A stretch of 64,000 nt of DNA from Spirochaetia bacterium (GTDB lineage: Bacteria > Spirochaetota > Spirochaetia > CADAEX01). The position numbers were made by a program, and so were the translations under genes. The notes beneath the pieces are model-generated. The model saw only the letters and a program-made list of their open reading frames with translations, ran no database searches and had not been told where the DNA came from. The stretch spans positions 32,001 through 96,000 of the forward strand of contig CAXXHA010000010.1 of the NCBI GenBank assembly GCA_963662265.2, read 5' to 3'. Positions 7,992 through 28,298 of the stretch are shown in pieces; positions within the stretch are counted from its first letter, which is position 1, and each line of letters opens with the position of its first letter.

Positions 7992-8666
7992 TTATTCTCG
8001 CATTAAATATATTACTTGTTTTCGAAACCAGGATCTTGGAGCCATTTTTCGATAATAGTTCACAATTAAATGAAATGAACATTTACCAAGTTTTTTCCCG
8101 CATCCACATGGACAAACCTTTTTATTTCCAACTCTTTTCTTAAGTCCCATAAGCCGAAATGCCTGGATAATTTGATAATCTTCTTCTAAACCTAATAGTA
8201 AAGAATAGTCATCCAAAGCTCCGGAATTCCCGTGGTCCAGTTCTCCGAACATAAAATCATCACCGTACTTTAATTTAACAGAGACAGCATAAAAGTAAGG
8301 GATTAAACATCTCTCTGCAAAAACAACCAGATCAGGAGAATTATTCACTATCGATAATAGACGGAGAGGAGATCCGAGACAGAGTGAACCGTCAGGATTT
8401 ACGTGAAAATCACCATTCTTAGGAATCCTCCCTTTTGTTTCTTTTACTACCGGAACTACTTGAGGAAAACCATAAGGAACTAAAAGTTCAATATTAAATT
8501 GGTCACAAATAGTTCCTCTGTTGTTTGTATCTGCAGTAAAACTAAATATTCCTCGAAGGTATATACCCAATTCAGATGATGGAGCAGTGGACATGCCCGG
8601 ATATTCGGAGAGAAATTTTTCTATTCCAAATTGTTTAGACTTTTCAAGCACATTTATACTCGCCAT
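7992..8666 (-). CDS. CBASS-associated E2/UBC-like protein with C-terminal SEC-C-type zinc motif
   Basis: P.GFP...P..KET, FHVNPDGSLCLG (E2-like H-x-N...C catalytic segment), CPCGCGKKLGKC; overlaps the end of the CD-NTase gene. Confidence 0.75.
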   Translation of the reverse strand: MASINVLEKSKQFGIEKFLSEYPGMSTAPSSELGIYLRGIFSFTADTNNRGTICDQFNIELLVPYGFPQVVPVVKETKGRIPKNGDFHVNPDGSLCLGSPLRLLSIVNNSPDLVVFAERCLIPYFYAVSVKLKYGDDFMFGELDHGNSGALDDYSLLLGLEEDYQIIQAFRLMGLKKRVGNKKVCPCGCGKKLGKCSFHLIVNYYRKMAPRSWFRKQVIYLMRE

Positions 8667-9844
8667 GGTTTTGGTGGATTTGCTTCCTCAAGGTGATGTC
8701 TTTTTTGTGTAATGATATGAACAGGCTTCTGCTCAAATCCAAGTCCTTTACTTAAAAGTTCAGAATTAAGTTTTACTGAGAATTTTCTCTCTGCCATCTC
8801 CCGGATGAATTCGGTATCAGTAGTTGAAGTAATATGGTAAAAATCTTTCTTGACTTGCATTAGCCACAAATGGAACGTCTCCTCAAGTCTTAGGTGAAGA
8901 CAATCTGCTCTGTACCATCTATCAGCAAAGTCTTCTCCTGGGTCCACAGGATTCGGTACACGAGGAATCGATGCATTTATATAGTTTTCCATTTTGCTCA
9001 AAACATTATTCAGAGCTAATTGAAGATTTGTTTCGCCCTGATAAGCTCGTGATGCTAATGTTGTAATTATGATTGAAATAGGCTTCGATTCCGGGTTTTC
9101 GATACTCCAACAGTCTCTATGCCTTTTAAGTAATTGAATAACTCTTTGTAATGGCGATTTTATCTTGTACTGAGGAACATCATCAACTTGCGCTTTTTTC
9201 ATCCTGTATCCTATAGGTAATGATTGCATTCGGTATCCAAACCACTTTGCATAACCTTCAGGATTACTAATATTCCAATCGTCACAGATATTTCTGTATG
9301 ATTCATGACGATCATCAGTGATGGAAATTGTCGTATAAGCAGCCGAAGCGGCTAATGGATCTTCAAGTCCAGTTGATCGAATCGATTTTAAAATCGCTTC
9401 TTGCTTTACACTTTCGGCGGGAATACATGGGACAATATCCATGTGAAAACTGATTTCATCTTGATATTCTAAACGCCAACATCTATGTTTTGGTTCCAGT
9501 CTTTTTTGGATTCCTCTTGCTGTTCTGTATAATTCCAGCTCTGACCCAACAATTTTCTTTAAACCTTCTTGAGTGATGGTTCTTTTATCAAATCCGGTCC
9601 GCAATTTGCAAGCGAGATCGAGATCGTATTCATCTCTTTCATTTATCGGACGTATTGCAGTGCCAAGTCTAAAAGACCCCTGAGGGAAAATGTGTGGCTC
9701 GTTATCTTTAAGTAGAGATCCTTCTCTATCAAACCATTTCCCCAAGTCTTCATATCTTTTTTTTGCTTTTTCATAAGCATGATCAGGTAATTCCAGCTGT
9801 TCGATCAAGTTCGAAAGTATCGTTTCTTTTTGTATTTCAGTCAT
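8654..9844 (-). CDS. CD-NTase (cGAS/DncV-like cyclic oligonucleotide synthase, SMODS family)
   Basis: PQGSFRLGTAIRP..EYDLDL, FHMDIVP, SNPEGYAKWF, LQRVIQLLKRHRD, PISIIITTL, NPVDPGEDFADRW. Start at 9844 follows GGAGG and overlaps the upstream stop region. Confidence 0.92.
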   Translation of the reverse strand: MTEIQKETILSNLIEQLELPDHAYEKAKKRYEDLGKWFDREGSLLKDNEPHIFPQGSFRLGTAIRPINERDEYDLDLACKLRTGFDKRTITQEGLKKIVGSELELYRTARGIQKRLEPKHRCWRLEYQDEISFHMDIVPCIPAESVKQEAILKSIRSTGLEDPLAASAAYTTISITDDRHESYRNICDDWNISNPEGYAKWFGYRMQSLPIGYRMKKAQVDDVPQYKIKSPLQRVIQLLKRHRDCWSIENPESKPISIIITTLASRAYQGETNLQLALNNVLSKMENYINASIPRVPNPVDPGEDFADRWYRADCLHLRLEETFHLWLMQVKKDFYHITSTTDTEFIREMAERKFSVKLNSELLSKGLGFEQKPVHIITQKRHHLEEANPPKPWRV

Positions 9845-11009
9845 CTTTTCCTCCGATTGTGATTGTTTTAACAAACTTTCGCAGTTTGTTATTCTGGTCA
9901 TATATTATCCAGGGCATATCCGCTTTTGGCATTCTGGCTCTCCCCATTTCTATAGAACAGGAGATACCCATAGCTGGAAAAACTGATAAATCTTTTTGAC
10001 CGTGGAAATTCTTTATTTGAATCATTAGAGACCTTATTGCCGTACGCATCATTGAAAGTTGAACTTGATTGCGAATATTGTCATTTCCTATATGTGTTTC
10101 AGGGACGGTTAAATCCCATATTGAAACATTATCCCCTAATACAGATTTGATTCGGTCATGATGTATGGAATCGCTCAAAGAAATAACAAGCACTGGTTGT
10201 CCCTCTGTGTTCTTTGGTTTTTTTATGATGAATTCGAATCCTTCTGGAAAATTTTGCCAGTGCCAGCCTTTGGGTTCTCTTAAAAGTTGATAGGTATCTA
10301 CAGATACTTTATCAGTGAATAACGCCCCTAGATGAATCAACAAAGGAATATCTGCTAAACAAAATAGCGAGAAATGCTTTGTCTGATCACTTTCAACAAG
10401 AGGTATTATCTTCTGGTTGAACATCCTGATTTGATGAGATAATTCAGATTCCCAAAATATTGACGTTTTGTCCTCGTGGGAGCATAACATTGATAGATCA
10501 ACTGATTTATCAGAAGCAGGATAGCGCTCTGGAAACATCGCTTCTATGGCTTCATCCTTCTGAAGCGGAGACCGTTGCTCGCCTATATTACTACCATAAA
10601 AAACTACATGGGATTTTTTGTTCGCTACAATTCCTGTTACGGATACAACTCTGTATTCATGCTCTCTTTTCCATTGCTGGAGTATTGAAGCAGAATATTT
10701 ACTACCATCTTTGTCTTGATCAATCGTTTTATGGCAGTCATGACACATAAGCATCAGGTTGTCTACATCATTAAGTTTCTGCGGCTTTTTTTGAAAAGGA
10801 CCCCACCCACGGGGGCCATCTTTTGAGAAAGAGTAAATGTGAGCTTTCTCCGAAATATTAACACGTTCTTGGGTAACTGGAGACTTGTAGAGTATTCGAT
10901 TACAACCATTAAATTGGCATCGTCCAGCAGCTCGTGCCCACAATTCTCGCTCTATTTCTTTTTTGATATTGCGGGTTATTTTGATTTCTTTAATAACATC
11001 TGTCCCCAT
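9837..11009 (-). CDS. HNH-SAVED CBASS effector (Cap5-like)
   Basis: LWARAAGRCQFNGC, KAHI...GPRG, NLMLMCHDCHKTID (HNH) followed by a SAVED-like region (FCLADIPLLIHLG, LSVFPAMG..SIEMGR). Confidence 0.88.
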   Translation of the reverse strand: MGTDVIKEIKITRNIKKEIERELWARAAGRCQFNGCNRILYKSPVTQERVNISEKAHIYSFSKDGPRGWGPFQKKPQKLNDVDNLMLMCHDCHKTIDQDKDGSKYSASILQQWKREHEYRVVSVTGIVANKKSHVVFYGSNIGEQRSPLQKDEAIEAMFPERYPASDKSVDLSMLCSHEDKTSIFWESELSHQIRMFNQKIIPLVESDQTKHFSLFCLADIPLLIHLGALFTDKVSVDTYQLLREPKGWHWQNFPEGFEFIIKKPKNTEGQPVLVISLSDSIHHDRIKSVLGDNVSIWDLTVPETHIGNDNIRNQVQLSMMRTAIRSLMIQIKNFHGQKDLSVFPAMGISCSIEMGRARMPKADMPWIIYDQNNKLRKFVKTITIGGKDD

Positions 11010-11020
11010 AAATATACCCT

Positions 11021-11254
11021 CTATTTCTTATCCTTTGGAGGACAGGGGTCATTACCATAACTGTTACCACCACGGATTTTTCCATCTCGACCATGAATCT
11101 TGGTATCAGATTTCTGGTTTCGGGCAATATCCTGTGCTATTTCAATTGCTTCTTGTTGAGTTGAGGTTACCTTTGTAGCCTTACTATTCCCGGCACCTTT
11201 AACAGCCCATCCATCTTCATGTTTAACGACATGCTGATTCTTTCCTTTTGCCAT
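11021..11254 (-). CDS. DUF2188-family small protein
   Basis: NQHVV...GWAVKGAG...TQQEAI..A..IA.NQ....IHGRDGKIR...SYGNDP pattern; AGGAGG RBS. Confidence 0.8.
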   Translation of the reverse strand: MAKGKNQHVVKHEDGWAVKGAGNSKATKVTSTQQEAIEIAQDIARNQKSDTKIHGRDGKIRGGNSYGNDPCPPKDKK

Positions 11255-11271
11255 CTCGGCCTCCTTGCATT

Positions 11272-11301
11272 TTCTCGTTCATTGAAACAGATGAACGAGA
11301 A
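11272..11301. promoter_or_regulatory. Perfect 11-bp inverted repeat containing a repeated 14-mer (candidate operator or hairpin upstream of the CBASS genes)
   Basis: TTCTCGTTCAT-tgaaacag-ATGAACGAGAA; TTCATTGAAACAGA (11278-11291) recurs exactly at 11868-11881. Confidence 0.65.
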
Positions 11302-11314
11302 TGATCAAAAAATT

Positions 11315-11872
11315 TTATTTAATTCTATAGTAATAGAATTCTTTACCACCACTCGGGGCAATTTCTTCTTGTCTTATTAGAAACCCCCCAGTCACTAATT
11401 GTTTAAGTTTCATGCTTGCATTGTTTAATTTCAGTTCCAACTCCTTCGCTACTTCAGCTGCTGTTATTGACGGCTTGGAAATAGCAAGCTCCAAAACTGC
11501 TTTTATTCCCAATTTTGGTTCTGTTCCAATTATCTGATACTCATTATCATTCCAGATAAACATTGGAATCTCTTTTTTAAGTGCAGCAGCATCAAGGTTA
11601 TCTATTAAATCAGGGTTCGTTACATCTGTAAGACAGATCCCTTTATCTCCCTTATATCGCCTAGCAACTTCCATTATACTTTCACGGGGAAATGAGGCAT
11701 CCAATCTACCTACATTTTTCAATGATATTAAAAAAAGAAGAGAAGTTGATTTTTCAATAATATTGAGGAGTTTTGAGTGTACTTCAATACCTTGTTCGCG
11801 ACCCCACCCATCATCTGATTCCATGAGATTTCGAAGAAGTATAGTCTCTCTTTTCTGCTTCATCTCTTTCAT
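11315..11872 (-). CDS. STAS-like + winged-HTH transcriptional regulator (CapS-like)
   Basis: N-terminal ISLKNVGRLDASF (STAS-type phospho-Ser loop); C-terminal ITAAEVAKELELKLNNASMKLKQLVTGGFLIR...GGKEFYY wHTH. Confidence 0.75.
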   Translation of the reverse strand: MKEMKQKRETILLRNLMESDDGWGREQGIEVHSKLLNIIEKSTSLLFLISLKNVGRLDASFPRESIMEVARRYKGDKGICLTDVTNPDLIDNLDAAALKKEIPMFIWNDNEYQIIGTEPKLGIKAVLELAISKPSITAAEVAKELELKLNNASMKLKQLVTGGFLIRQEEIAPSGGKEFYYYRIK

Positions 11873-11888
11873 TGAAACAGAAAACTAA

Positions 11889-12818
11889 CTATTTGTCAAG
11901 ACCAATATCTAATGTAATATGAGTTCCGGCGAAATCCATTGTCGTTTTTGTTATAGAACCTTGAGCTTCATACCCAAATATTTTTGAGTCTAGGGGTGTA
12001 AGGTGAAATCTGGAGTGAGGGAGTCGCACATCCAGAGTCGCATGAAATTTCAAAGCATGTTTTGCACATGTTTTTAGTCCACAACCTTTGTCACCACCAT
12101 CTTTTGAAAGGCCTTCGGAAAACATCAGTTCAATCAATTTTGCATCATCTGCATCTTTATATTGGGGATAATGATCTGTAATTTTTGAACGAAGGGAAGT
12201 CAGTAATCCTATACCGCTATCTGACACAGCAACTTTAACAGAAGTACCTTTTTTATAAACTTGAAAGGCGATAAAACCTTTAAGCTCAGTTTGACTATGA
12301 AGGTAGATATTTTCTACAAGCTCAGCAAAAAAAGTATAACAGGGAGTATCAAAAGAGGCCCTTATATTCTCGTCAGCAATATTGGATAGCAATTTATTAG
12401 CTAAAGTCGTAGGTAAGGAAGAATCTCTTGCTAAATTTACAGGATCTATTGGAATAATTTCAAGAACTCCAGAGTTTGTACCTCGAAATATATCTGCACC
12501 AGAAATATCTGGCCTTTCTGGGACAGTTGTTATATCATCTTCCAACTGATCAAAAAAACCTAATCTATTCATATATCCAAATGCACCATCTTCACCTTCT
12601 TCGAAATTAAGACAGACATTTTTTCCTGATTTGCATAGTTGGTTAAGATAGCTTAAAAGCCGAACCCCCGCATCTACCATGAGCTTTCCGCCATCAGGAA
12701 CAGTAATCAAGAAATCCGTACTATCTTGAATAGTCGTACCTTCAACCAGATTTAATTGATTTTCAAGATCCACACAGCTAATCCATTTTTCCGGTAATTC
12801 TATTGAAATCTGTCTCAT
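11889..12818 (-). CDS. Anti-sigma-factor-like GHKL kinase/ATPase with N-terminal STAS-like region (CapK-like)
   Basis: ELVENIYLHS (N-box), VAVSDSGIG (G1), GCGL (G2); no recognisable HisKA H-box; YMNRLGFF N-terminal motif. Confidence 0.75.
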   Translation of the reverse strand: MRQISIELPEKWISCVDLENQLNLVEGTTIQDSTDFLITVPDGGKLMVDAGVRLLSYLNQLCKSGKNVCLNFEEGEDGAFGYMNRLGFFDQLEDDITTVPERPDISGADIFRGTNSGVLEIIPIDPVNLARDSSLPTTLANKLLSNIADENIRASFDTPCYTFFAELVENIYLHSQTELKGFIAFQVYKKGTSVKVAVSDSGIGLLTSLRSKITDHYPQYKDADDAKLIELMFSEGLSKDGGDKGCGLKTCAKHALKFHATLDVRLPHSRFHLTPLDSKIFGYEAQGSITKTTMDFAGTHITLDIGLDK

Positions 12819-12928
12819 GCTTATTCGCTCCTAACTACACATATTTCCAAGAGAAATACTCAAATCCATTGGAAACTGTAAATTCCATATCATTCCCCAG
12901 AGCCTTAAAATGGGCTTTTCCACTCATA

Positions 12929-13810
12929 TCAATGATGCAGTATATCCACCGCATTGCTAGATATCTTCTGTATCGACTCAACCGATTTTTCGTAGTTCTC
13001 CTCTGCAACCCCTGTGTAGAGAATATCCATGATAATTATCTGGGAAAGCCTTGCGTATGAAGTAAGAAGGTAGTCATCAAGCTCCTCGTACTGGGAGGAA
13101 ATCTTTATGTCTGCCATCTTTATAAGGGGGGATCTTCCCGGGCCTGTTATTGCAATAGTTGCAGCGCCGTTATCCTTTGCAATCTTCATTGCAGTGTTGA
13201 CAACTTCTGTCTTTCCCGAATAACTGAGGCCTATTGCGACATCCCCTTTCTCTGTTAATGATGCTGCAATCCCCATCTCTGCAGGGTCGTTGTAGACAGA
13301 TGTCTTTATCCCTGCCCTGTAAAACCTGAGGTATGAGTTTTTTGCTGCTATGCAGGATGTCCCTACGCAGAAGAAATTTATACTTTTTGCATCCTTTATA
13401 GCACCGATCGCATTTAGGATCTCCCTGGTATCGAGGTTCTTGAGAGTCATCTGTATGTCTGAGATATATTCATTCTTTACACGTGATATGAGGCTGTCGA
13501 CAGGGTCGTCTGTGTTTATCCTGTCAAGGTCGTCAAGTTCACCTTTAGTCTCTCTTACAGATGAATCAACCTTTATAACTGCATACTTGAAGTTCTGAAA
13601 GCTGCTGAACCCGATTTTTCTTATAAATCTTGTTACTGTCGCTTCCGACACATCGCAGTTCAGTGCAAGCTGCTTTATCTTGAGATGTTTGAGCTCCTCC
13701 CTGTTGGAGAGAAAATATTCAGCCACCTTCACTTGAGCCTTGTTGAACGAAGGCATGAGGTTCTGTATTCTTACGAAAAGATTGTTTATAAAGATATCTT
13801 CCTGCGCCAT
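12929..13810 (-). CDS. RpiR/MurR-family transcriptional regulator
   Basis: LA..CDVSEATVTRFIRKIGFSSFQNFK HTH; SIS domain GLSYSGKT, IAITG...SPL. Confidence 0.92.
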   Translation of the reverse strand: MAQEDIFINNLFVRIQNLMPSFNKAQVKVAEYFLSNREELKHLKIKQLALNCDVSEATVTRFIRKIGFSSFQNFKYAVIKVDSSVRETKGELDDLDRINTDDPVDSLISRVKNEYISDIQMTLKNLDTREILNAIGAIKDAKSINFFCVGTSCIAAKNSYLRFYRAGIKTSVYNDPAEMGIAASLTEKGDVAIGLSYSGKTEVVNTAMKIAKDNGAATIAITGPGRSPLIKMADIKISSQYEELDDYLLTSYARLSQIIIMDILYTGVAEENYEKSVESIQKISSNAVDILHH

Positions 13811-13894
13811 TTCTTACAAAGTAAAAGAAATAATGCGGTTTTGCAATAAAAAAATAAAATATATGCAGTAATGATTCTTTGTATAGAAAAAAAC

Positions 13895-13922
13895 TTGACA
13901 GGAGAAAATGCTCTGGTATAAT
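13895..13922 (+). promoter_or_regulatory. Sigma70-type promoter of the DUF819 operon
   Basis: TTGACA (13895-13900), 16 nt spacer, TGgTATAAT extended -10 (13914-13922). Confidence 0.8.
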
Positions 13923-13930
13923 TCTTCCTG

Positions 13931-13970
13931 TATGAAATTCACTTTCATATGAAATGAAATTACATTTCAT
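13931..13970. promoter_or_regulatory. Tandem palindromic operators, likely bound by the divergent RpiR
   Basis: TATGAAA-ttcac-TTTCATA (13931-13949) and ATGAAA-ttaca-TTTCAT (13954-13970) just downstream of the -10. Confidence 0.7.
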
Positions 13971-14016
13971 ATCTCATTTGCCCGGCCGGCAGCAATTCTA
14001 CAATGGAGGAAATTTA

Positions 14017-15183
14017 ATGGAAAGTCTTATCTCTCCCGACAGTCTCGGACTGATCATTTCTGTAATGATGATAATGATTGCACTCGCTTTCTATCTTCAG
14101 AAATTCAGGGTATTCAGATCATTCGGCCCTGTTATCACAGTTATTATTCTCGGAGCTGTTTTATCCAATCTCGGCATAATGCCGAAATGGTCTGACAGCT
14201 ATAATTTTATTTTTGAATTTGCAGTACCTGTTTCGCTTTGTCTGTTCCTTCTGCATATTGATGTTAAAAAATTCCTTAAGGTTGCAAAAAACCCTATGCT
14301 TGCAATGCTTTTCGGTCTTTTCAGCATCTGTGTGGTTGCACTCACCATGGGTATTATCTTTGCACCGAAAATCGCAGAAGGATGGAAAATTGCAGGTATG
14401 TTTATCGGAACATATACAGGCGGAAGCCCAAACCTTACAGCTATTGCCCAGGGCCTCAAGGCTACTCCCGACACTATTGTTGCAGGTAATGCTGCAGACT
14501 ATGCAATCGGCCTTCCCACTATTCTTATTTTCATGGCGCTCCCGAGACTTATCGGAAAAGCCAAATGGTTTCAGAAATTCTGGCCCTACTCTCTCAACGA
14601 GGAACAGCTTGCAGCTCCTGAAGAGGAAAAGCTTTTCGGAAGCATAGACTGGTCAATTCATGATATTTCAATCCTTCTTGCAACAGCATTCACTGTAGTT
14701 TCAGTCTGTACCCTTGTTACAAGCCAGTTCTCAGACCTGATTGCAAGTGCGACAAGAATTCTCTTAATCACAACTGTTTCAATTATCATGGCGCAGTTTG
14801 AGCCTATCAAGAAGCTGAAAGGTTCTGTAGACCTGGGTTTCTATATATGTCTCTTCTTCCTCTGTGTTATTGGTTTCATGCTTAACATCAAGGAAGTGCT
14901 TAATGCTGCTCCCATGATTGCCCTCTTCTGTTTCTGCGTTGTTGCAGGAGCTGTGCTTCTTCATCTTGTGCTTTGCAGAATTTTTAAGATCGAATGGCAG
15001 TACTATATTGTTTCTTCTGTTGCAGCTATCTGGGACGGTCCTACAACTGCAATGCTTGCAGGGGCTCAGGGTTGGACATCGCTCATGCCTGTGGCAATTA
15101 TCCTGGGTGCCTTTGGAGAGGCCTGCGGAAACTATCTAGGTATCGGAATAGCATTTCTAATCAAATCATTTATCGGTGCCTGA
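14017..15183 (+). CDS. DUF819-family multi-pass membrane protein (probable transporter)
   Basis: About 10 hydrophobic segments, LSNLGI.P, GTYTGGSPN, GPTTA, GNYLG; GGAGG RBS before ATG 14017. Confidence 0.75.
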   Translation: MESLISPDSLGLIISVMMIMIALAFYLQKFRVFRSFGPVITVIILGAVLSNLGIMPKWSDSYNFIFEFAVPVSLCLFLLHIDVKKFLKVAKNPMLAMLFGLFSICVVALTMGIIFAPKIAEGWKIAGMFIGTYTGGSPNLTAIAQGLKATPDTIVAGNAADYAIGLPTILIFMALPRLIGKAKWFQKFWPYSLNEEQLAAPEEEKLFGSIDWSIHDISILLATAFTVVSVCTLVTSQFSDLIASATRILLITTVSIIMAQFEPIKKLKGSVDLGFYICLFFLCVIGFMLNIKEVLNAAPMIALFCFCVVAGAVLLHLVLCRIFKIEWQYYIVSSVAAIWDGPTTAMLAGAQGWTSLMPVAIILGAFGEACGNYLGIGIAFLIKSFIGA

Positions 15184-15258
15184 GTTACAGGAAATCACAG
15201 CCGGATTATTCCGGTATGTGATTATTTTAAATAATTACAGAGGAATACAGGCAGAGTA

Positions 15259-16527
15259 ATGATTAATAATAATATCAGTAAAAATGATTATATTGATTTT
15301 CTCAAAAAACTGATTGCGATCCAATCTGTTACTGGTAATGAAAAAGAAGCTGCTGAGTTTCTTAAAAAGAATTTTATCGAAAACGGTTTTGAAAACTGCT
15401 TCATTGACAGGTGCGGAAACCTTGTCGCACTTCTACCAGGCCGTGGAGAAGGTCCATGCATCATGCTTAACGGTCACCTCGATGTTGTGCCAGAAGGAAA
15501 TATGGATGACTGGCTCCCATATCATCCATATAACGCGGAACTTGATGATGAGGGGAACCTGTACGGACGGGGAACTTCTGACATGAAGGGGGGGCTTTCA
15601 TCCCTTTTCTTCACCATGCTTCACTTTAAAAAGCTCTCCGATGAGGGGTTTACACTTCCGGGAAACCTTGTATTCTCTGCAGTTGTCCATGAGGAAGCTG
15701 CTGAAATGCTTGGAATGGAGTATCTTATAGAAAAGACTCTTCCCGAAATAGGTATAAAATGCGACCTTGTGTGCCTTGCAGAGCCGACTGACGGCAACCT
15801 TGCAATTGGACAGCGGGGAAAGGTTGAGCTTGTAATAAGGACAAAGGGAAAAACAGCCCACTCATCTGTTCCGAAAGAGGGTATCAATGCTCTTGAAAAG
15901 ATGGGGCCTGTGCTTGATTATATTTTCAAAACCATGCCTCTTTCTCTTAAATCCAGCGATGTTTTCGGGGAAGGGACTGTTACAGTTACCGACTGTGTTG
16001 TGAAGCCGGGGGCTTTGAGCGTAATACCTGATGAATGCGAGATTTCGGTTGACAGGAGGTACATGCCTGATGAGACGATTGAATCGCTTCTTGAGGAATT
16101 TGAAAATCTATTCAAAGGCCTTAAAGAGAAGGACAGTGATTTTGATGCATCTGTTTCTGCAAGGTATTTCGATGAGACAACCTATACAGGCTACAGTAAA
16201 AACATCATGAAATATCATCCCCCCTGGATGATGGAGAGGGATAATATATTTGTAGAAAAAGCATTTGCTGCGCTTAAAAAAGCGGGTCAGAATCCTTCCA
16301 TCAAGTACTGGAAATCGGGATGCGACGGAAGCATGAGCTGCGGAATCCACGGGATACCCACAATAGGTTATTCGTGGGGTCTTGAAGAATGGGTTCATAA
16401 GCCTGGTGAAAGGGTAAATATAGACAAAATGCTTGAAACGATATCCGGATATATTGAAATTGTAAAAAATGTGATGGATGCTGATGAGTCATTCAGCATC
16501 GGAAAAAGCGGAAGGAGCGGGATTTGA
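15259..16527 (+). CDS. M20-family metallo-amidohydrolase (ArgE/DapE/YgeY-like)
   Basis: LNGHLDVVP, GRGTSDMKGG, HEE, AEPT, GKTAHSS, H.PGE. Confidence 0.88.
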   Translation: MINNNISKNDYIDFLKKLIAIQSVTGNEKEAAEFLKKNFIENGFENCFIDRCGNLVALLPGRGEGPCIMLNGHLDVVPEGNMDDWLPYHPYNAELDDEGNLYGRGTSDMKGGLSSLFFTMLHFKKLSDEGFTLPGNLVFSAVVHEEAAEMLGMEYLIEKTLPEIGIKCDLVCLAEPTDGNLAIGQRGKVELVIRTKGKTAHSSVPKEGINALEKMGPVLDYIFKTMPLSLKSSDVFGEGTVTVTDCVVKPGALSVIPDECEISVDRRYMPDETIESLLEEFENLFKGLKEKDSDFDASVSARYFDETTYTGYSKNIMKYHPPWMMERDNIFVEKAFAALKKAGQNPSIKYWKSGCDGSMSCGIHGIPTIGYSWGLEEWVHKPGERVNIDKMLETISGYIEIVKNVMDADESFSIGKSGRSGI

Positions 16528-17471
16528 AAACACTTATTAAGACAGATATTGAAACAGCTGTTAAAAGAGTACCTGAATGGGAGGGACTGGATGTTGATTT
16601 TAAACCGGCAGGCAACGGCATAACAAATCCCAACTTCATAGTTTCAGCAGCTGGGAAAAACTACTTCCTTAAAATCCCAGGGGCCGGAACAGACAGTTTC
16701 ATTGACAGGGACAACTGCCATGAAGCAAACCTGATTGCAATGGAATCAGGCTCAGGACCGGATGTTTTCAAATACTTTCCCGACACAGGTGTTGAAATAT
16801 GGGAATGGCTTGAAGGCTACAGGCAGCTTACTTTCGGGGATGTCTATGACAGGGAGATTTTCACAAAAATTGCCGAAACTGCCCTGAAGTTCCATTCATA
16901 CAGCGAAAAAAAGCTACCCCTTACGCAATCACTGTTTGAACAGGCAAGACACATGATAGAGAGAGCTGACAAACTCGGTTACAGGCCGCCCTGGTACGAC
17001 AGGATTATATTCCTCTTAAATACAATTGAGGAGGCTGTTAACACAGACGGAATAAATTTGAGCCCTTCACACAACGACCTCTGGACAAACAACTTCATGT
17101 ACAATCCGGAAACCGGGGATATGAAGATGATTGATTTTGAATATGCATCCATGAGCGATCCCTATAACGACCTGGGATGTTATTCAACTTCAAACTACCT
17201 TACAGAAGCTATGGATGTTGAACTCTGCAAAATATACCACGGAAGATGGGATGAAAAGGGTTTTGCAAGGATGAAGCTCTACAAGATTGTAGCTGACATT
17301 AAATGGGGCTACTGGGCGCTTCAGCAGTCGCTCTACTCTGATGTCGAGTTTGACTACATGGAATGGTACGGGGTCCAGTTCTCACGGCTCCGTCACCTCT
17401 GGCATGATCCAAGGCTTGACTACTGGATATCCCTCCTAAAGGGGACTGATATTTTTATCAGAAGAAAATAA
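16524..17471 (+). CDS. Choline/ethanolamine kinase-like phosphotransferase (APH superfamily)
   Basis: GITNPNF, KIPGAGT..FIDR, SHNDLWTNN, MIDFEYASM.DP..DLG. Confidence 0.82.
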   Translation: MKTLIKTDIETAVKRVPEWEGLDVDFKPAGNGITNPNFIVSAAGKNYFLKIPGAGTDSFIDRDNCHEANLIAMESGSGPDVFKYFPDTGVEIWEWLEGYRQLTFGDVYDREIFTKIAETALKFHSYSEKKLPLTQSLFEQARHMIERADKLGYRPPWYDRIIFLLNTIEEAVNTDGINLSPSHNDLWTNNFMYNPETGDMKMIDFEYASMSDPYNDLGCYSTSNYLTEAMDVELCKIYHGRWDEKGFARMKLYKIVADIKWGYWALQQSLYSDVEFDYMEWYGVQFSRLRHLWHDPRLDYWISLLKGTDIFIRRK

Positions 17472-20636: not shown

Positions 20637-20913
20637 TAAAATTCTCCTTGTATAGAGATCTGTAAGTATGAATAATTAAGCCTTGAATTTTCTGTTTAAA
20701 CACCTGAAACATTTTATACCTTACTTTTATTAATAGTAGTTTCAAAATGATCTGTTTTCAAAAGAAACTCTTACATGAGGCTGTATTTACAATAAATTTT
20801 AATAAAATCAGATATTCTGAAGGCTTTATAAATTAAACAGGACGAAAATTCTTTCTTCAGGACCGGAAGATAATTTCATATTTAAACAAGCAGTGTTTTA
20901 AATATAAAATAAT

Positions 20914-20969
20914 ATCGATATTATTGTATCCAATATTGACATTTTTCTTATTCGATACTATATTATCCA
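20914..20969 (+). promoter_or_regulatory. Array unit 1 promoter with ATCGAT-type operator repeats
   Basis: TTGACA 20936-20941, 17 nt, TATATT 20959-20964; ATCGAT-N8-ATCCAA upstream and TTCGAT-N8-ATCCAT across the -10. Confidence 0.75.
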
Positions 20970-21044
20970 TACAGGTTGGGCAAACAACCTGTAGGTGAAA
21001 ATATTTTGTTTTTGAGAAAATCAAAAATAAAAAAAGAAAATAGA

Positions 21045-21152
21045 ATGTACGAAAGACCTCTGGTAAATGGCAAAATAATATCAGAAATAAGGTCTTTCAA
21101 TAAAAAAACTGCAAATACGTCCGGCAAAACAGTATTTGCAGTTATAATCTAA
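21045..21152 (+). pseudogene. Decayed paralog of the unit-2 47-aa microprotein (MYERPLVNGKIISEIRSFNKKTANTSGKTVFAVII)
   Basis: ERPLVNGK vs ERPFINGK and ANTSGKT vs AEATGKS. Upstream TTGAGAAAATCAAAAATAAAA aligns with TTGAGGAGATCAAAATGAAA of unit 2, with the RBS and ATG altered. Confidence 0.5.
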
Positions 21153-21202
21153 GACTTTTTTATAGATTCCTCCTAACCTTCTAAAAAGAGTTTTATTCAT
21201 GG

Positions 21203-21237
21203 GAACCTGCTGTAAGTTTTACAGCAGGTTCTTTTTT
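21203..21237 (+). terminator. Intrinsic terminator, unit 1
   Basis: GAACCTGCTGTAA-gtt-TTACAGCAGGTTC-TTTTTT. Confidence 0.85.
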
Positions 21238-21309
21238 CATTATTACCTCCTGTAATAATGAGTTGTTATTTATAAAACTGCAGTGAGTTTCACTGCAGTT
21301 TTTCTTTTT
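21238..21309 (+). other. Extra module: hairpin with CTCCT loop followed by a second terminator
   Basis: CATTATTAC-ctcct-GTAATAATG (21238-21260); AAAACTGCAGTGA-gtt-TCACTGCAGTTTT + T-rich tail (21274-21309). Confidence 0.6.
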
Positions 21310-21578
21310 GCTGGCCGTTGCTGCATAAACAGGCTTTTTATACTTATAATTCTGCATTTATTTCACAGACTTATCCGCTGATCACCTGGCAGAAATCTTA
21401 TATTTCCCTATTAACAGCTTTCAAGGACTCTAAAGCTGTTAAACTTATTTCAACAGTGTTTTATCCTCCCGGAATAATTCTAATTATCACGCAGTCTAAA
21501 CACTGTTTTGCCCATATTCCCATATGGAGCCCACCTGTCTACCTATCTAACTACCCAGAACCATGTAGATAAATTTTT

Positions 21579-21635
21579 ATCGATAATTACATATCTTATA
21601 TTGACATTTTTTATTTTCGATAGTATGTTATCGAT
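21579..21635 (+). promoter_or_regulatory. Array unit 2 promoter with ATCGAT-type operator repeats
   Basis: TTGACA 21601-21606, 17 nt, TATGTT 21624-21629; ATCGAT at 21579; TCGATA-gtatgt-TATCGA across the -10. Confidence 0.78.
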
Positions 21636-21676
21636 AGTTAGAGATTGAAATAAATAGTATTTCAAGGAGGACAATT

Positions 21677-21772
21677 ATGTTAGAAATTTTAATTGTAGCT
21701 ATTATAGCAGCTGGTGCAGTTTTTGCATTCATAGAAGACGGTCGTGTTAGTCCTAACGGAATCGACTGGTAA
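21677..21772 (+). CDS. 31-aa single-TM micropeptide MLEILIVAIIAAGAVFAFIEDGRVSPNGIDW
   Basis: AAGGAGG RBS 6 nt upstream; hydrophobic N-terminal helix; clear paralog at 22205-22306 with conserved IAAG...AFIEDG...PN..DW. Confidence 0.75.
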   Translation: MLEILIVAIIAAGAVFAFIEDGRVSPNGIDW

Positions 21773-21803
21773 TCTAGAAAAAACTTGTTTTGAGGAGATC
21801 AAA

Positions 21804-21947
21804 ATGAAAAAAATACTTAGTAAATTATCAGAAAGACCATTTATCAATGGCAAACAGAGACATATTAAAAAAGAAGGCCTTTCAATTAAGGCAGTTGCAG
21901 AAGCAACAGGAAAATCAATTGAATCTGTACTTTCAATGAAATTCTAA
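21804..21947 (+). CDS. 47-aa basic microprotein with an HTH-like C-terminus
   Basis: GAGGAG RBS; GLSIKAVAEATGKSIESV fits the S-x-x-x-[VI]-A-x-x-x-G-x-S-x-x-x-V helix-turn-helix pattern; decayed paralog in unit 1. Confidence 0.6.
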   Translation: MKKILSKLSERPFINGKQRHIKKEGLSIKAVAEATGKSIESVLSMKF

Positions 21948-21991
21948 AACTTCTTTTTAACTTCAAACCTTCTAAATTTTGAGTTTTATTC

Positions 21992-22028
21992 AAAAGACCT
22001 GCTGAGCCGTATACAGCAGGTCTTTTTT
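21992..22028 (+). terminator. Intrinsic terminator, unit 2
   Basis: AAAAGACCTGCTG-agccgtata-CAGCAGGTCTTTTTT; stem core ACCTGCTG/CAGCAGGT shared with the unit 1 terminator. Confidence 0.85.
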
Positions 22029-22105
22029 AATTTTTCAGTGAAAATCATTGATAACCTTTGTTCAGGAAGTAGATAAATAAAAATCATGCATTTTGATAAT
22101 ATATT

Positions 22106-22162
22106 ATCGATAATGCTGTATCCATACTTGACTTTTTCAGTTATCCTTTATACATTATCAAT
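22106..22162 (+). promoter_or_regulatory. Array unit 3 promoter with ATCGAT-type operator repeats
   Basis: TTGACT 22128-22133, 17 nt, TACATT 22151-22156; ATCGAT-N8-ATCCAT upstream, same spacing as units 1 and 2. Confidence 0.72.
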
Positions 22163-22204
22163 AACTTTAAATACGATTTTAATAATCTTGTTAAGGAGGC
22201 CAGC

Positions 22205-22306
22205 ATGTTACTTATCAATACTTTAGTAATCATGGCTATTGCAGCAGGAGTTTTAGCTGCATTCATTGAAGATGGAAAAACAGCACCAAATTGCTGTGAC
22301 TGGTAG
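22205..22306 (+). CDS. 33-aa single-TM micropeptide MLLINTLVIMAIAAGVLAAFIEDGKTAPNCCDW
   Basis: AAGGAGG RBS 5 nt upstream; paralog of 21677-21772 with synonymous codon changes in the shared FIEDG/PN/DW residues. Confidence 0.75.
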   Translation: MLLINTLVIMAIAAGVLAAFIEDGKTAPNCCDW

Positions 22307-22356
22307 AAAGTAGTCTGAAGATTTCAGATACTTGTAAAAACTGAAAACAATCAGTA

Positions 22357-22550
22357 GAAAGGTCTGTAATTTACAACAGGATTAACAATATAGAGAAAGG
22401 AAGACCTTTCACATTACATTCCATGATGCTGCAGCAAAAACAACAGAATCGGCATCCGGAATGTAAAACAAAAGACTTTTTAGATTCCTCCAAAATTCTA
22501 AAAAGAGTTTTATTTCCAGGCCCCGCAGCGTTGCTGAGGGGCCTTTTTTT
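22357..22550 (+). ncRNA. Putative structured RNA / 3' UTR-derived sRNA, array unit 3
   Basis: Stems 22357-22365/22402-22410, 22414-22422/22458-22466 and 22476-22484/22497-22505 with TTCCTCC in the loop; terminator 22518-22550. Confidence 0.6.
22518..22550 (+). terminator. Intrinsic terminator, unit 3
   Basis: AGGCCCC-g-CAGC-gtt-GCTG-a-GGGGCCT + T7. Confidence 0.82.
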
Positions 22551-22685
22551 CCCCCTTTCACGCAAATACCCATTCTCTCGGCAGCTTCATAAGATTTAAT
22601 AATAAAATTCCGCCTCTTGCGATTTATATGCATATCATGCAACTTCAACCATCCAGGTATTTTTACAAAATAATTACAGACTGTA

Positions 22686-22740
22686 TTGACTTTTTCCCTT
22701 TTCGATAGTATTATATCGATAACAAGTTACCGATAACAAG
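22686..22740 (+). promoter_or_regulatory. Array unit 4 promoter (no recognisable ORF follows)
   Basis: TTGACT 22686-22691, 17 nt, TATTAT 22709-22714; TCGATA-gtatta-TATCGA plus direct repeat CGATAACAAG at 22717 and 22731 (14-bp period). Confidence 0.65.
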
Positions 22741-22802
22741 CAATATTTCTGATGGCCAGAAATGTTTGACTTTATAAATACAACTGGAATAAGGCTGGAG
22801 AT

Positions 22803-22834
22803 AAAAAAAATCCCGGATCCGAAGAACCGGGATT
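22803..22834 (-). terminator. Intrinsic terminator of gdhA
   Basis: A-run then ATCCCGG...CCGGGAT stem downstream of the gdhA stop. Confidence 0.8.
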
Positions 22835-22871
22835 TATATAAGCCTAATCAGGCTAAATATAAAACTATATC

Positions 22872-27593: not shown

Positions 27594-28298
27594 TCATACA
27601 GATTTCTCAGGCGGGGCAAGAAGCTTCATCTCCTTCTTTTTCCTCCGTTTTTCCCGCTCTGCAGCCCTCTCTGCAATTGTTTTCTGAAGCTTTTCAAGCG
27701 CTATTTCACCTGCAATTATCAGGGCATTTACACCTGACAGGATCTTGTGCTCTTTCCAGGAAATCCTGCCGTTCTTGGGCTTATAGACAAGATCATGCTC
27801 AATCTCTGCCCAGGAATGCATGAGAATAGAGGCAACCTGTATTTCAATCATTGTATTTCTGAATTTATCTGAAAAATCACTGTCTTTAAGATAAACACGG
27901 TAGTGATTGGCACAGTATTCTGCCTTGTTGATTTTCGGCCGTTTTCTTTTCCGGTCGTTTTTTTCGGGAAAAGTCTTGCATTTTACGACATTGAACTTTT
28001 CCCTGATTATCCGGTCAACTGCGTCCCGTTCATTTGGAAAGTAAAGAGCTATTCTCACACCTGCAAGATCATATATATCTTCCCTTATCTGCTCTTCATT
28101 TTCATAGTTTCTGGTTTTAAATCTTCTTTCAATTTTTTCCCTGAGAGAGTCAGCCTTCTTGGCCCTGGAAGATATAATTGATTTTATACCTGCAGCCTTC
28201 ATTGCATCATCAGTAATTTCCTGCGAAATATAAGCCAGTTTAATATAAAAATCATAATCCTCTTTATACTTCTCTACAAACTGATCAATTAATTCCAA
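27594..28298 (-). CDS. Stand-alone RelA/SpoT-domain small alarmone synthetase-like protein
   Basis: SRAKKADSLREK, DLAGVRI, H-Y, EIQVASILMHSWAEIEHDLVYK. Confidence 0.85.
   Translation of the reverse strand: MELIDQFVEKYKEDYDFYIKLAYISQEITDDAMKAAGIKSIISSRAKKADSLREKIERRFKTRNYENEEQIREDIYDLAGVRIALYFPNERDAVDRIIREKFNVVKCKTFPEKNDRKRKRPKINKAEYCANHYRVYLKDSDFSDKFRNTMIEIQVASILMHSWAEIEHDLVYKPKNGRISWKEHKILSGVNALIIAGEIALEKLQKTIAERAAEREKRRKKKEMKLLAPPEKSV

What the first reader, a model, noticed from the sequence alone, without database searches (positions are those of the whole stretch)
7992..12818. CBASS island with unusual composition: kinase/STAS-wHTH regulators, DUF2188, HNH-SAVED, CD-NTase and lone E2-SEC-C
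Seen: six co-oriented, tightly packed or overlapping genes inserted between the creC-like kinase and rpiR, with codon usage that looks different from the flanks (by eye) and no integrase. Established: a CD-NTase plus an HNH-SAVED (Cap5-type) effector is a CBASS abortive-infection system, and canonical type II systems carry E1-E2 (Cap2) and JAB (Cap3). Here E1 and JAB are absent, as in 'short' E2-only type II systems. Inference: the combination with a dedicated kinase/repressor pair and DUF2188 makes a complete, inducible variant.
Basis: partly seen in the sequence, partly recalled or inferred. Interest (0 to 1): 0.78.

Follow-up and report, generated by a model that had tools for sequence, protein, structure and literature searches.

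The report
DNA-damage-switched E2-only CBASS cassette
This is an intact six-gene anti-phage cassette of an already catalogued layout, in which a kinase-repressor pair likely switches on a suicide alarm (signal-making enzyme plus DNA-cutting effector) after DNA damage; its untested twists are a signal enzyme without the usual tail glycine and a shortened kinase whose repressor likely reads a different DNA site.

Summary
Observation confirmed. Six intact minus-strand genes: CapK-type kinase, CapS repressor, DUF2188, Cap5 (HNH-SAVED), clade-G CD-NTase, E2 with zinc knuckle. The combination is not new. CapK+CapS is described (PMC13373217), and its Dataset EV2 lists 49 loci with E2-only CBASS. One of them supplied VcCdnG and VcCap5, shown to make and sense 3',2'-cGAMP (PMC12804361); 16 of 17 tested VcCdnG residues are kept here. 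The same six-gene order occurs in two other genomes of the class. DUF2188 travels with this CBASS family, mostly without CapKS.

Details I did not find in print:
(1) The CD-NTase ends in Pro-Trp-x-x, without the glycine that the one studied E2-CBASS needs. The scan found this before on other DNA.
(2) CapK lacks the N-terminal HTH, and TTCA-N10-TGAA palindromes sit at both CapS sites in place of TTAA.
(3) An 87-bp relic of a type III res gene upstream shows the cassette was cut from an R-M-CBASS locus, so capK probably relies on rpiR read-through.

Verdict: new member of a known kind; interest 0.3.

The parts
12838..12924 (-). Relic of the 3' end of a type III restriction res gene (residues 972-1000 of the G647 Res protein), starting a few bases after the rpiR stop codon
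   Evidence: 83% aa identity, E 1.9e-8, only match in the genome; DNA alignment; G647 protein is ResIII/RE_endonuc, next to an N6_N4 methylase
11889..12818 (-). capK: STAS-GHKL kinase, 309 aa, without the N-terminal HTH of published CapK; ssDNA-stacking Trp12 and catalytic Asn170 kept
   Evidence: Alignment with E. roggenkampii CapK WP_001567866.1: W68->W12, N218->N170, K237->K189, K239 falls in a gap; 93/289 identical; W12 and N170 invariant in 30 homologues
11894..11899 (-). Exact TTGACA (-35-like) in the last codons of capK, 36 nt before the probable capS ATG; possibly a leaderless capS promoter (inferred)
   Evidence: TTGAC invariant in 5 aligned junctions; ATG at offset 36 in 4 of 10 junctions, 35 in 1, not in 5; not called by the promoter scan because the -10 lacks the conserved A
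   Evidence: caveat: the right half-site includes the start codon
11315..11863 (-). capS: STAS-wHTH repressor (ORF open from 11872; homologues suggest the second ATG); phospho-acceptor Ser60 and DNA-binding N151, K157, G175-G176 kept (numbered from 11872)
   Evidence: PDB 9Z72/9Z71; residue mapping to WP_001567865.1
11278..11295 (.). Predicted CapS operator 2: TTCA-N10-TGAA with nested TTCA-N1-TGAA, between capS and DUF2188
   Evidence: (26-nt repeat D4 with operator 1)
11021..11254 (-). DUF2188 (PF09954; PADLOC candidate PDC-S16), 77 aa, accessory gene of unknown activity
   Evidence: 97% identical in G647, 86% in G461
9837..11009 (-). cap5: HNH-SAVED nuclease effector, 390 aa
   Evidence: PDB 7RWK E 9.2e-67; AsCap5 D220, R231, R310, K347, D349 align to D233, R244, R326, K362, D364 (read off; residues)
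8654..9844 (-). cdnG: clade-G CD-NTase, 396 aa (ORF open from 9901), N194/Y198 lid, C-terminus P393-W394-R395-V396 with no glycine
   Evidence: PDB 9WOO E 2.1e-119; model closest to SmCdnG, Z 27.7, rmsd 3.4 A, 318 aligned; 16 of 17 tested VcCdnG residues kept; P393 and W394 invariant in 44 sequences
7992..8666 (-). E2-fold protein with catalytic-type His88 and Cys96 and a C-terminal SEC-C-like zinc knuckle (C185, C187, C189, C196); homologues suggest a GTG start at 8651
   Evidence: PADLOC PDLC00859; invariant columns; model pLDDT 91, UBC-fold matches incl. SmE2 8HSB_B Z 7.5, rmsd 3.7 A, 129 aligned; weak SEC-C peptide matches, E 0.021

Best explanation
An intact CapK-CapS plus E2-only CBASS cassette that likely works as a DNA-damage-induced abortive-infection system: CapS is predicted to repress itself and the four downstream genes, CapK would lift that repression on sensing single-stranded DNA, the cyclase is predicted to make 3',2'-cGAMP, and Cap5 would then destroy DNA. 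Steps and their status: (1) gene content, intactness and conserved catalytic residues: shown. (2) CapS dimers bind TTCA-N10-TGAA palindromes at 11859-11876 and 11278-11295: inferred from position, spacing and conservation. (3) ssDNA activates CapK (Trp12), which phosphorylates CapS Ser60 and splits the dimer: inferred from the E. roggenkampii pair, where deleting the HTH had no effect. (4) CdnG makes 3',2'-cGAMP and Cap5 oligomerises and degrades DNA: inferred from VcCdnG/VcCap5 and AsCdnG/AsCap5. (5) The E2 docks on the Pro-Trp tail and probably attacks it with Cys96/His88, as SmE2 does at Gly406, tuning cyclase activity: least certain step. DUF2188 is most likely a co-induced accessory gene that CBASS killing does not need. 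The cassette came from a type III R-M-capKS-CBASS locus and lost the R-M genes.
For: Family and structure matches. All five CapS residues and 3 of 4 CapK residues named in PMC13373217 are kept. 16 of 17 VcCdnG residues tested or named in PMC12804361 are kept, mapped through the near-identical V. gigantis enzyme. VcCdnG and VcCap5 (IMG 2633935099...098) have gene ids consecutive with the CapK/CapS of V. cholerae 365-96 in Dataset EV2 (...094...095). Operators: the same half-site at both spacings at both junctions arose in 1 of 200,000 random window pairs from the genome, and the nested motif occurs 12 times in the genome, 2 of them here. The downstream wide site is present in 5 of 8 loci with HTH-less or apparently HTH-less CapK and 0 of 5 with HTH-bearing CapK. 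Whole cassette 83% identical in G647 behind mod-res; res relic in the window.
Against: No activity was measured. No CapS binding is shown; the half-site differs from the published TTAA and was picked after looking. The upstream right half-site overlaps the start codon, and the looser TT(C/A)A-N10-TGAA also appears upstream in 3 of 5 HTH-bearing loci; three Methylobacterium loci lack the downstream site. CapK K239 has no aligned partner. capK has lost its upstream R-M operon, and the promoter scan found no minus-strand site between rpiR and capK. The tail lacks the glycine whose change to Val or Leu abolishes E2 linkage in S. marcescens. Some Cap5 proteins respond to 3',3'-cGAMP instead.
Confidence: 0.8

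Rival explanations
1. The cassette is intact but stranded: with the R-M operon gone, capK is barely transcribed, CapS is never phosphorylated and the CBASS genes stay off.
For: Only 87 bp of res survive between the rpiR stop and capK; no promoter-like site on the minus strand there; the sister cassette in G647 is broken by an IS21 element in the E2 zinc knuckle.
Against: All six ORFs and both palindromes are intact; rpiR is co-oriented, ends 110 nt upstream, and no terminator-like site was found between them, so read-through is possible.
Confidence: 0.12
2. Rival for step 5 only: the E2 does not conjugate. It binds the Pro-Trp tail non-covalently (as UEV domains bind peptides) and acts as inhibitor or activator, the zinc knuckle sensing a phage or host protein.
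For: Residue after Pro-Trp is variable (E71, K21, R13, Q5, G4, other 4 of 118); top fold matches are UEV domains (Tsg101 Z 9.4, Vps23 Z 8.6), tied within noise with true E2s; full-length VcCdnG is active in vitro without its E2.
Against: His88 and Cys96 are invariant in 34 aligned E2s, and a His..Cys motif is in 119 of 120, matching SmE2 H87/C101. At least two residues always follow Pro-Trp (118 of 118; 72 of 72), the same register as Tyr405-Gly406-Glu407.
Confidence: 0.35
3. DUF2188 is the point of the module: a second effector or sensor that the system needs, making this a distinct CBASS subtype.
For: First gene behind operator 2; 97% and 86% conserved in G647 and G461, more than its neighbours; PADLOC candidate defence system PDC-S16; seen beside other CBASS, Thoeris and CapH/CapP loci.
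Against: No DUF2188 match upstream in 28 of 44 related loci; 14 of the 16 that have it also carry type I hsdM or hsdR; the slot holds another small gene (PDC-S38) plus YdjM in V. gigantis and is empty in L100.
Confidence: 0.12

Closest known systems
CapK+CapS regulators with 'CBASS Type IIB (E2)' (Chambers et al., EMBO J 2026, PMC13373217; read parts 1-5 of 12, find passages, Dataset EV2 part 1 of 4 and a term search of that file; PDB 9Z71, 9Z72)
   Same: capK-capS directly upstream of an E2-only CBASS; key residues; two operator sites with 1-bp and 10-bp spacing; link to an upstream R-M system (relic here); 49 such rows, one an Oceanispirochaeta.
   Different: CapK lacks the HTH, which the paper associates with VapK; half-site TTCA/TGAA instead of TTAA; DUF2188 is not mentioned in the main text or Dataset EV2. 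The pair tested there controls a Bub operon.
Vibrio cholerae CdnG-Cap5 (Ye et al., JBC 2025, PMC12804361; read parts 1-3 of 6 and find passages; PDB 9WOO)
   Same: Closest solved CD-NTase (E 2.1e-119), same length, same Pro-Lys-Pro-Trp tail, N/Y lid, Cap5 effector; comes from a CapKS locus.
   Different: In the parts read and the term search, that paper does not treat the E2, the tail or the regulators. The related V. gigantis locus has a 57-aa gene and YdjM where the window has DUF2188.
Serratia marcescens E2-CBASS, SmCdnG-SmE2 (Yan et al., bioRxiv 10.1101/2022.05.25.493364, parts 1-2 of 6; Xiao et al., mLife 2026, PMC12948482, parts 1-2 of 4; PDB 8HSB, 8YJY)
   Same: Clade-G cyclase plus lone E2 with catalytic His and Cys; no E1, no JAB.
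   Different: SmCdnG needs Gly406, called highly conserved in both papers; here the tail has no glycine. SmE2 is about 160 aa; this E2 is 219-224 aa with a zinc knuckle and shows no sequence match to SmE2 in the PDB search. Effector there is 2TM-SAVED.
Asticcacaulis and Lactococcus CdnG-Cap5 (Fatma et al. 2021, PMC8568899; parts 1-3 of 6; PDB 7RWK)
   Same: Cap5 with the five functional residues kept; 3',2'-cGAMP signalling; type II short with a third gene of a family without Pfam number.
   Different: No regulators described; third gene not characterised, and I could not check whether it is this E2 family.

Membership tests
CBASS type II short / E2-CBASS (IIB) | CD-NTase with intact GS motif and catalytic aspartates | tested here: met
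   G56, S57, D74, D76, D136
CBASS type II short / E2-CBASS (IIB) | Adjacent cyclic-nucleotide effector | tested here: met
   HNH-SAVED overlapping the cyclase start
CBASS type II short / E2-CBASS (IIB) | Stand-alone E2-fold protein with catalytic Cys; no E1 or JAB in the operon | tested here: met
   no JAB match in the genome, ThiF on other contigs only
CBASS type II short / E2-CBASS (IIB) | Cyclic nucleotide synthesis and phage protection | not testable with these tools
   Inferred from VcCdnG/VcCap5
SmCdnG-type self-conjugating E2-CBASS | Conserved glycine near the cyclase C-terminus as the conjugated residue | tested here: not met
   Tail PKPWRV; Gly directly after Pro-Trp in 4 of 118 homologues and 2 of 72 E2-adjacent cyclases
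SmCdnG-type self-conjugating E2-CBASS | E2 His-Cys protease-like pair | tested here: met
   H88 and C96 invariant; correspondence to SmE2 H87/C101 is by motif and fold, not by a residue-level superposition
SmCdnG-type self-conjugating E2-CBASS | Covalent cyclase-E2 adduct | not testable with these tools
   Needs co-expression and mass spectrometry
CapK+CapS | capK immediately followed by capS, upstream of an immune operon | tested here: met
CapK+CapS | CapS STAS-wHTH with phospho-acceptor Ser and DNA-binding N, K, GG | tested here: met
   S60, N151, K157, G175, G176
CapK+CapS | CapK STAS-GHKL with ssDNA Trp and catalytic Asn | tested here: met
   W12, N170
CapK+CapS | CapK N-terminal HTH (part of the published domain description; dispensable in the paper's assay) | tested here: not met
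   309 aa against 368; alignment starts after the HTH; upstream DNA is a res relic. An HTH-less 313-aa CapK is in a Sphingobium herbicidovorans plasmid, a species listed in Dataset EV2
CapK+CapS | TTAA palindromes spaced 1 or 10 bp at both junctions | tested here: not met
   No exact TTAA pair at either junction; TTCA/TGAA pairs with the same two spacings instead
VapKSC toxin-antitoxin | HTH-less kinase plus STAS-only VapS plus PIN-domain VapC | tested here: not met
   Partner has a full wHTH and no PIN gene is in the cassette
Cap5 | N-terminal HNH with zinc finger and C-terminal SAVED with conserved front and back residues | tested here: met

The most novel reading that the evidence does not exclude
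This cassette belongs to a large E2-CBASS branch whose zinc-knuckle E2 cleaves and conjugates its cyclase through a non-glycine residue (Arg395 here, after an invariant Pro-Trp anchor; or Trp394 itself): ubiquitin-like ligation without the small C-terminal residue that the studied systems use. It is wired to an HTH-less CapK lineage whose CapS reads TTCA operators and is made from a leaderless message.
Probability: 0.4. Interest if true: 0.62.

Novelty: new member of a known kind. Interest (0 to 1): 0.3.

Why it matters
As a system it adds little: the layout is in a published table and its closest cyclase-effector pair is characterised. Its value is as a compact test case. It offers a natural HTH-less CapK, which fits the finding that the HTH is dispensable, and predicted operators with a changed half-site. 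It also carries a cyclase-E2 pair from a widespread branch that cannot use the glycine chemistry shown for E2-CBASS. If that pair conjugates, the residue rule for bacterial ubiquitin-like ligation needs widening.

Tried and rejected
TTAA-N10-TTGA at the capS stop (one mismatch) was first taken for the operator and dropped: about 0.09 such sites per 100 bp arise by chance, and the exact TTCA palindromes are conserved. A frameshifted or separately encoded HTH upstream of capK: rejected, the DNA is a res relic. An empty site joining creC and rpiR: not found in the 30 relatives searched. A single-protein scan of metagenomes with the E2 found nothing; the alignment scan found 284 and kept 80. CapK alignment in viral contigs: 128 candidates, none confirmed. 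A promoter-operator pattern scan of viral contigs gave 16 loci, none encoding any of the six proteins; the pattern did not match the window's own layout. A phylum sample with the CapK alignment gave 18 of 400 weak matches (E about 1e-15 to 1e-18), not followed up. ESM Atlas for DUF2188: one unnamed cluster at 0.76, uninformative. Sequencing runs: no RNA holder listed. 9WOO did not appear in the fold library, which ends April 2026. The zinc-knuckle region (residues 149-224) was barely tested by the fold search. Literature searches for the tail: CBASS+PKPW, 0 papers; searches listed nothing on a glycine-less E2-CBASS, judged from listings and the papers read. The library lacks most subscription journals, including the Nature Microbiology version of Yan et al. 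Supplementary figures of the papers were not seen: the operator logos of PMC13373217 Fig. 2 and the C-terminal alignments of Yan and Xiao could already show the TTCA or Pro-Trp variants. No CD-NTase tree was built; clade G rests on similarity to 9WOO, 8HSB and 7LJN.
Full report
Observation. The six minus-strand ORFs are present, unbroken and tightly spaced. Family scans give E2, cyclase and HNH-SAVED effector models at E 1.9e-83, 3.3e-121 and 1.8e-137, DUF2188/PDC-S16, a weak HTH and a weak HATPase_c. All six genes sit at the 0.3-1.2 percentile for codon fit among 1,499 long ORFs, but rpiR and two of its neighbours are also low (1.3-3.5) and GC is unremarkable. No integrase lies in the window, no JAB was found in the 90.6% complete genome, and the one clear ThiF is on another contig. 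The host was not determined.

Site and origin. Of 30 relatives, G001 (same genus) matches the window up to 7874, then has an HNH gene and a 515-aa gene, and resumes near 20,900. The rpiR cluster lies in other surroundings in G002 and G009. The slot after creC is therefore variable, and the block in this genome is about 13 kb, not only the cassette. Among 400 genomes of the class, CapS was found in 2 and the E2 in 7. G647 holds the entire cassette at 83% nucleotide identity directly behind a type III mod-res pair; G461 has the same six-gene order at 43-86% protein identity. Window 12838-12924 encodes the last 29 residues of that Res protein (83% identity, only match in the genome), beginning just after the rpiR stop. 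The cassette was cut out of an R-M-capKS-CBASS locus, a layout that PMC13373217 reports for 88 of 443 capKS loci. This explains the missing integrase.

Regulators. The STAS-wHTH protein matches the two CapS structures. I fetched the plasmid locus that encodes the paper's CapS accession and aligned both proteins. CapS S54, N145, K151, G169 and G170 are all kept. CapK W68, N218 and K237 are kept and K239 falls in a gap. CapK here is 309 aa and lacks the HTH. The 54 other hits of the homologue search are 246-335 aa, so the short form is a lineage, though that search favours close relatives. The paper found no effect of deleting the HTH and assigns HTH-less kinases to VapKSC; here the partner is a full CapS and there is no VapC. 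A Sphingobium herbicidovorans plasmid also has a 313-aa CapK with CapS and the species is in Dataset EV2, so the short form is probably already in the published list without comment.

Operators. The paper's CapS binds TTAA half-sites 1 or 10 bp apart, at the capK-capS junction and after capS. The window has no such TTAA pair at either place. Both places instead carry TTCA-N10-TGAA with a nested TTCA-N1-TGAA (11859-11876, 11278-11295). Alone, the wide pattern is at chance level in the window (5 seen, 4.0 expected) and the narrow one is enriched (9 seen, 3.8 expected). A control allowing any 4-base half-site gave 1 in 200,000 random window pairs with the same half-site at both spacings in both windows. 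The wide site recurs at both junctions in G647 and G461 with changed spacers, and as TT(C/A)A-N10-TGAA in L100 and Sphingobium. Against this: the upstream right half-site includes the start codon and the looser pattern also appears upstream in 3 of 5 HTH-bearing loci, and three Methylobacterium loci lack the downstream site. The unconfounded downstream count is 5 of 8 against 0 of 5, and these loci are kin. An exact TTGACA ends capK, 36 nt before the probable capS ATG; the same offset holds in 4 of 10 junctions (35 in one), which hints at a leaderless capS message, but the -10 is poor.

Cyclase and effector. The best solved relative is 9WOO, VcCdnG of PMC12804361, which makes 3',2'-cGAMP that activates VcCap5. 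I was led to that paper by an earlier scan note and read it. Its genes (IMG ...099...098) are consecutive with the CapK/CapS ids (...094...095) of the same strain in Dataset EV2, filed as Type IIB (E2). I counted 49 such rows in part 1 of 4 of that file. The V. gigantis plasmid locus shows the order hsdR-capK-capS-small gene-YdjM-SAVED-cyclase-E2, with 27, 37, 54, 50 and 35% identity to the window proteins. Mapped through its cyclase, 16 of 17 VcCdnG residues are kept; K119 is His. Five functional AsCap5 residues are kept. 3',2'-cGAMP is thus the likely signal.

E2 and tail. The E2 model (pLDDT 91) has a UBC fold; UEV domains, UFC1 and SmE2 score Z 7.5-9.4. His88, Cys96 and three zinc-knuckle cysteines are invariant in 34 sequences; the knuckle is in 119 of 120 homologues. 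In S. marcescens the E2 cleaves after Gly406 and links to it; G406V and G406L abolish this, and a later paper calls the glycine highly conserved. Here the cyclase ends PKPWRV. Of 120 homologues, 118 end in Pro-Trp plus 2-3 residues and 4 have Gly next. Of 80 metagenome loci found with the E2, 3 gave no cyclase match and 2 had truncated cyclases; 72 of the other 75 end in Pro-Trp plus 2-6 residues, 2 with Gly next. Methylobacterium capKS loci have a Gly-type tail, and the one whose E2 I scanned has a different, short E2 family, so tail and E2 type seem to vary together. The aromatic-plus-two register matches Tyr405-Gly406-Glu407 and points to Arg395 as the attacked residue; this is inference, and the complex could not be predicted. 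Several earlier scan notes report the same tail on other DNA; they are not independent evidence, and I had seen the tail before reading them.

DUF2188. It lies upstream in 16 of 44 loci with at least 5 kb of upstream DNA, 14 of those with type I hsdM or hsdR, while CapKS is in 1 of 44. It is noted beside CBASS, Thoeris and CapH/CapP loci in passages of three preprints; 13 papers contain the term, and none of the passages read gives a function. It looks like an exchangeable accessory gene.

Other papers seen: PMC11153139 (part 1 of 9; canonical type II tails end in Ala or Gly) and PMC11381338 (passages; a lactococcal E2-only CBASS protects against phage).

Verdict. Real, intact and ordinary as a system: a new member of the CapKS-regulated E2-only CBASS. 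The open points are the glycine-less tail with a zinc-knuckle E2, the HTH-less CapK with predicted TTCA operators, and the R-M relic. Interest 0.3.

Noticed in passing
window 12929-17471: rpiR, DUF819 transporter, M20 peptidase and choline-kinase-like gene form a unit found at 74% identity in other surroundings in G002 and G009 and not at this site in G001; three of the four have atypical codon use, so this is probably a second acquired block.
   Followed up: partly
L018:6842-9660 (G001): The same slot after creC holds a 364-aa HNH protein and a 515-aa protein with no convincing Pfam and no PADLOC match; possibly another defence module.
   Followed up: partly
window 20640-22870: About 2.2 kb of low-GC DNA (30-38%) before gdhA with no ORF over 85 aa; partly conserved in G001.
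   Followed up: no
window 27594-28298: Small RelA/SpoT-domain gene (weak PADLOC PDC-S33 match) between the 995-aa gene and leuS; G001 aligns on both sides but not over it.
   Followed up: partly
L159:20-2160 (G647): An IS21 element interrupts the sister cassette's E2 inside the zinc knuckle; the remaining residues match another contig end.
   Followed up: partly
L025, L026, L030, L033, L037, L038, L040, L045; L161: Type I R-M operons that enclose two CBASS systems in tandem: DUF2188, patatin, a SMODS-AGS_C cyclase, then Cap5, CdnG and E2 (domains scanned only in L161, where cap5 is largely deleted).
   Followed up: partly
L022:5110-5283: 57-aa PDC-S38 protein in the slot that DUF2188 fills in the window.
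   Followed up: partly
L106-L123: 18 of 400 genomes of the phylum have distant CapK-like kinases (E 1e-15 to 1e-18, frames of about 290-360 aa); neighbours not examined, possibly VapK-like.
   Followed up: no
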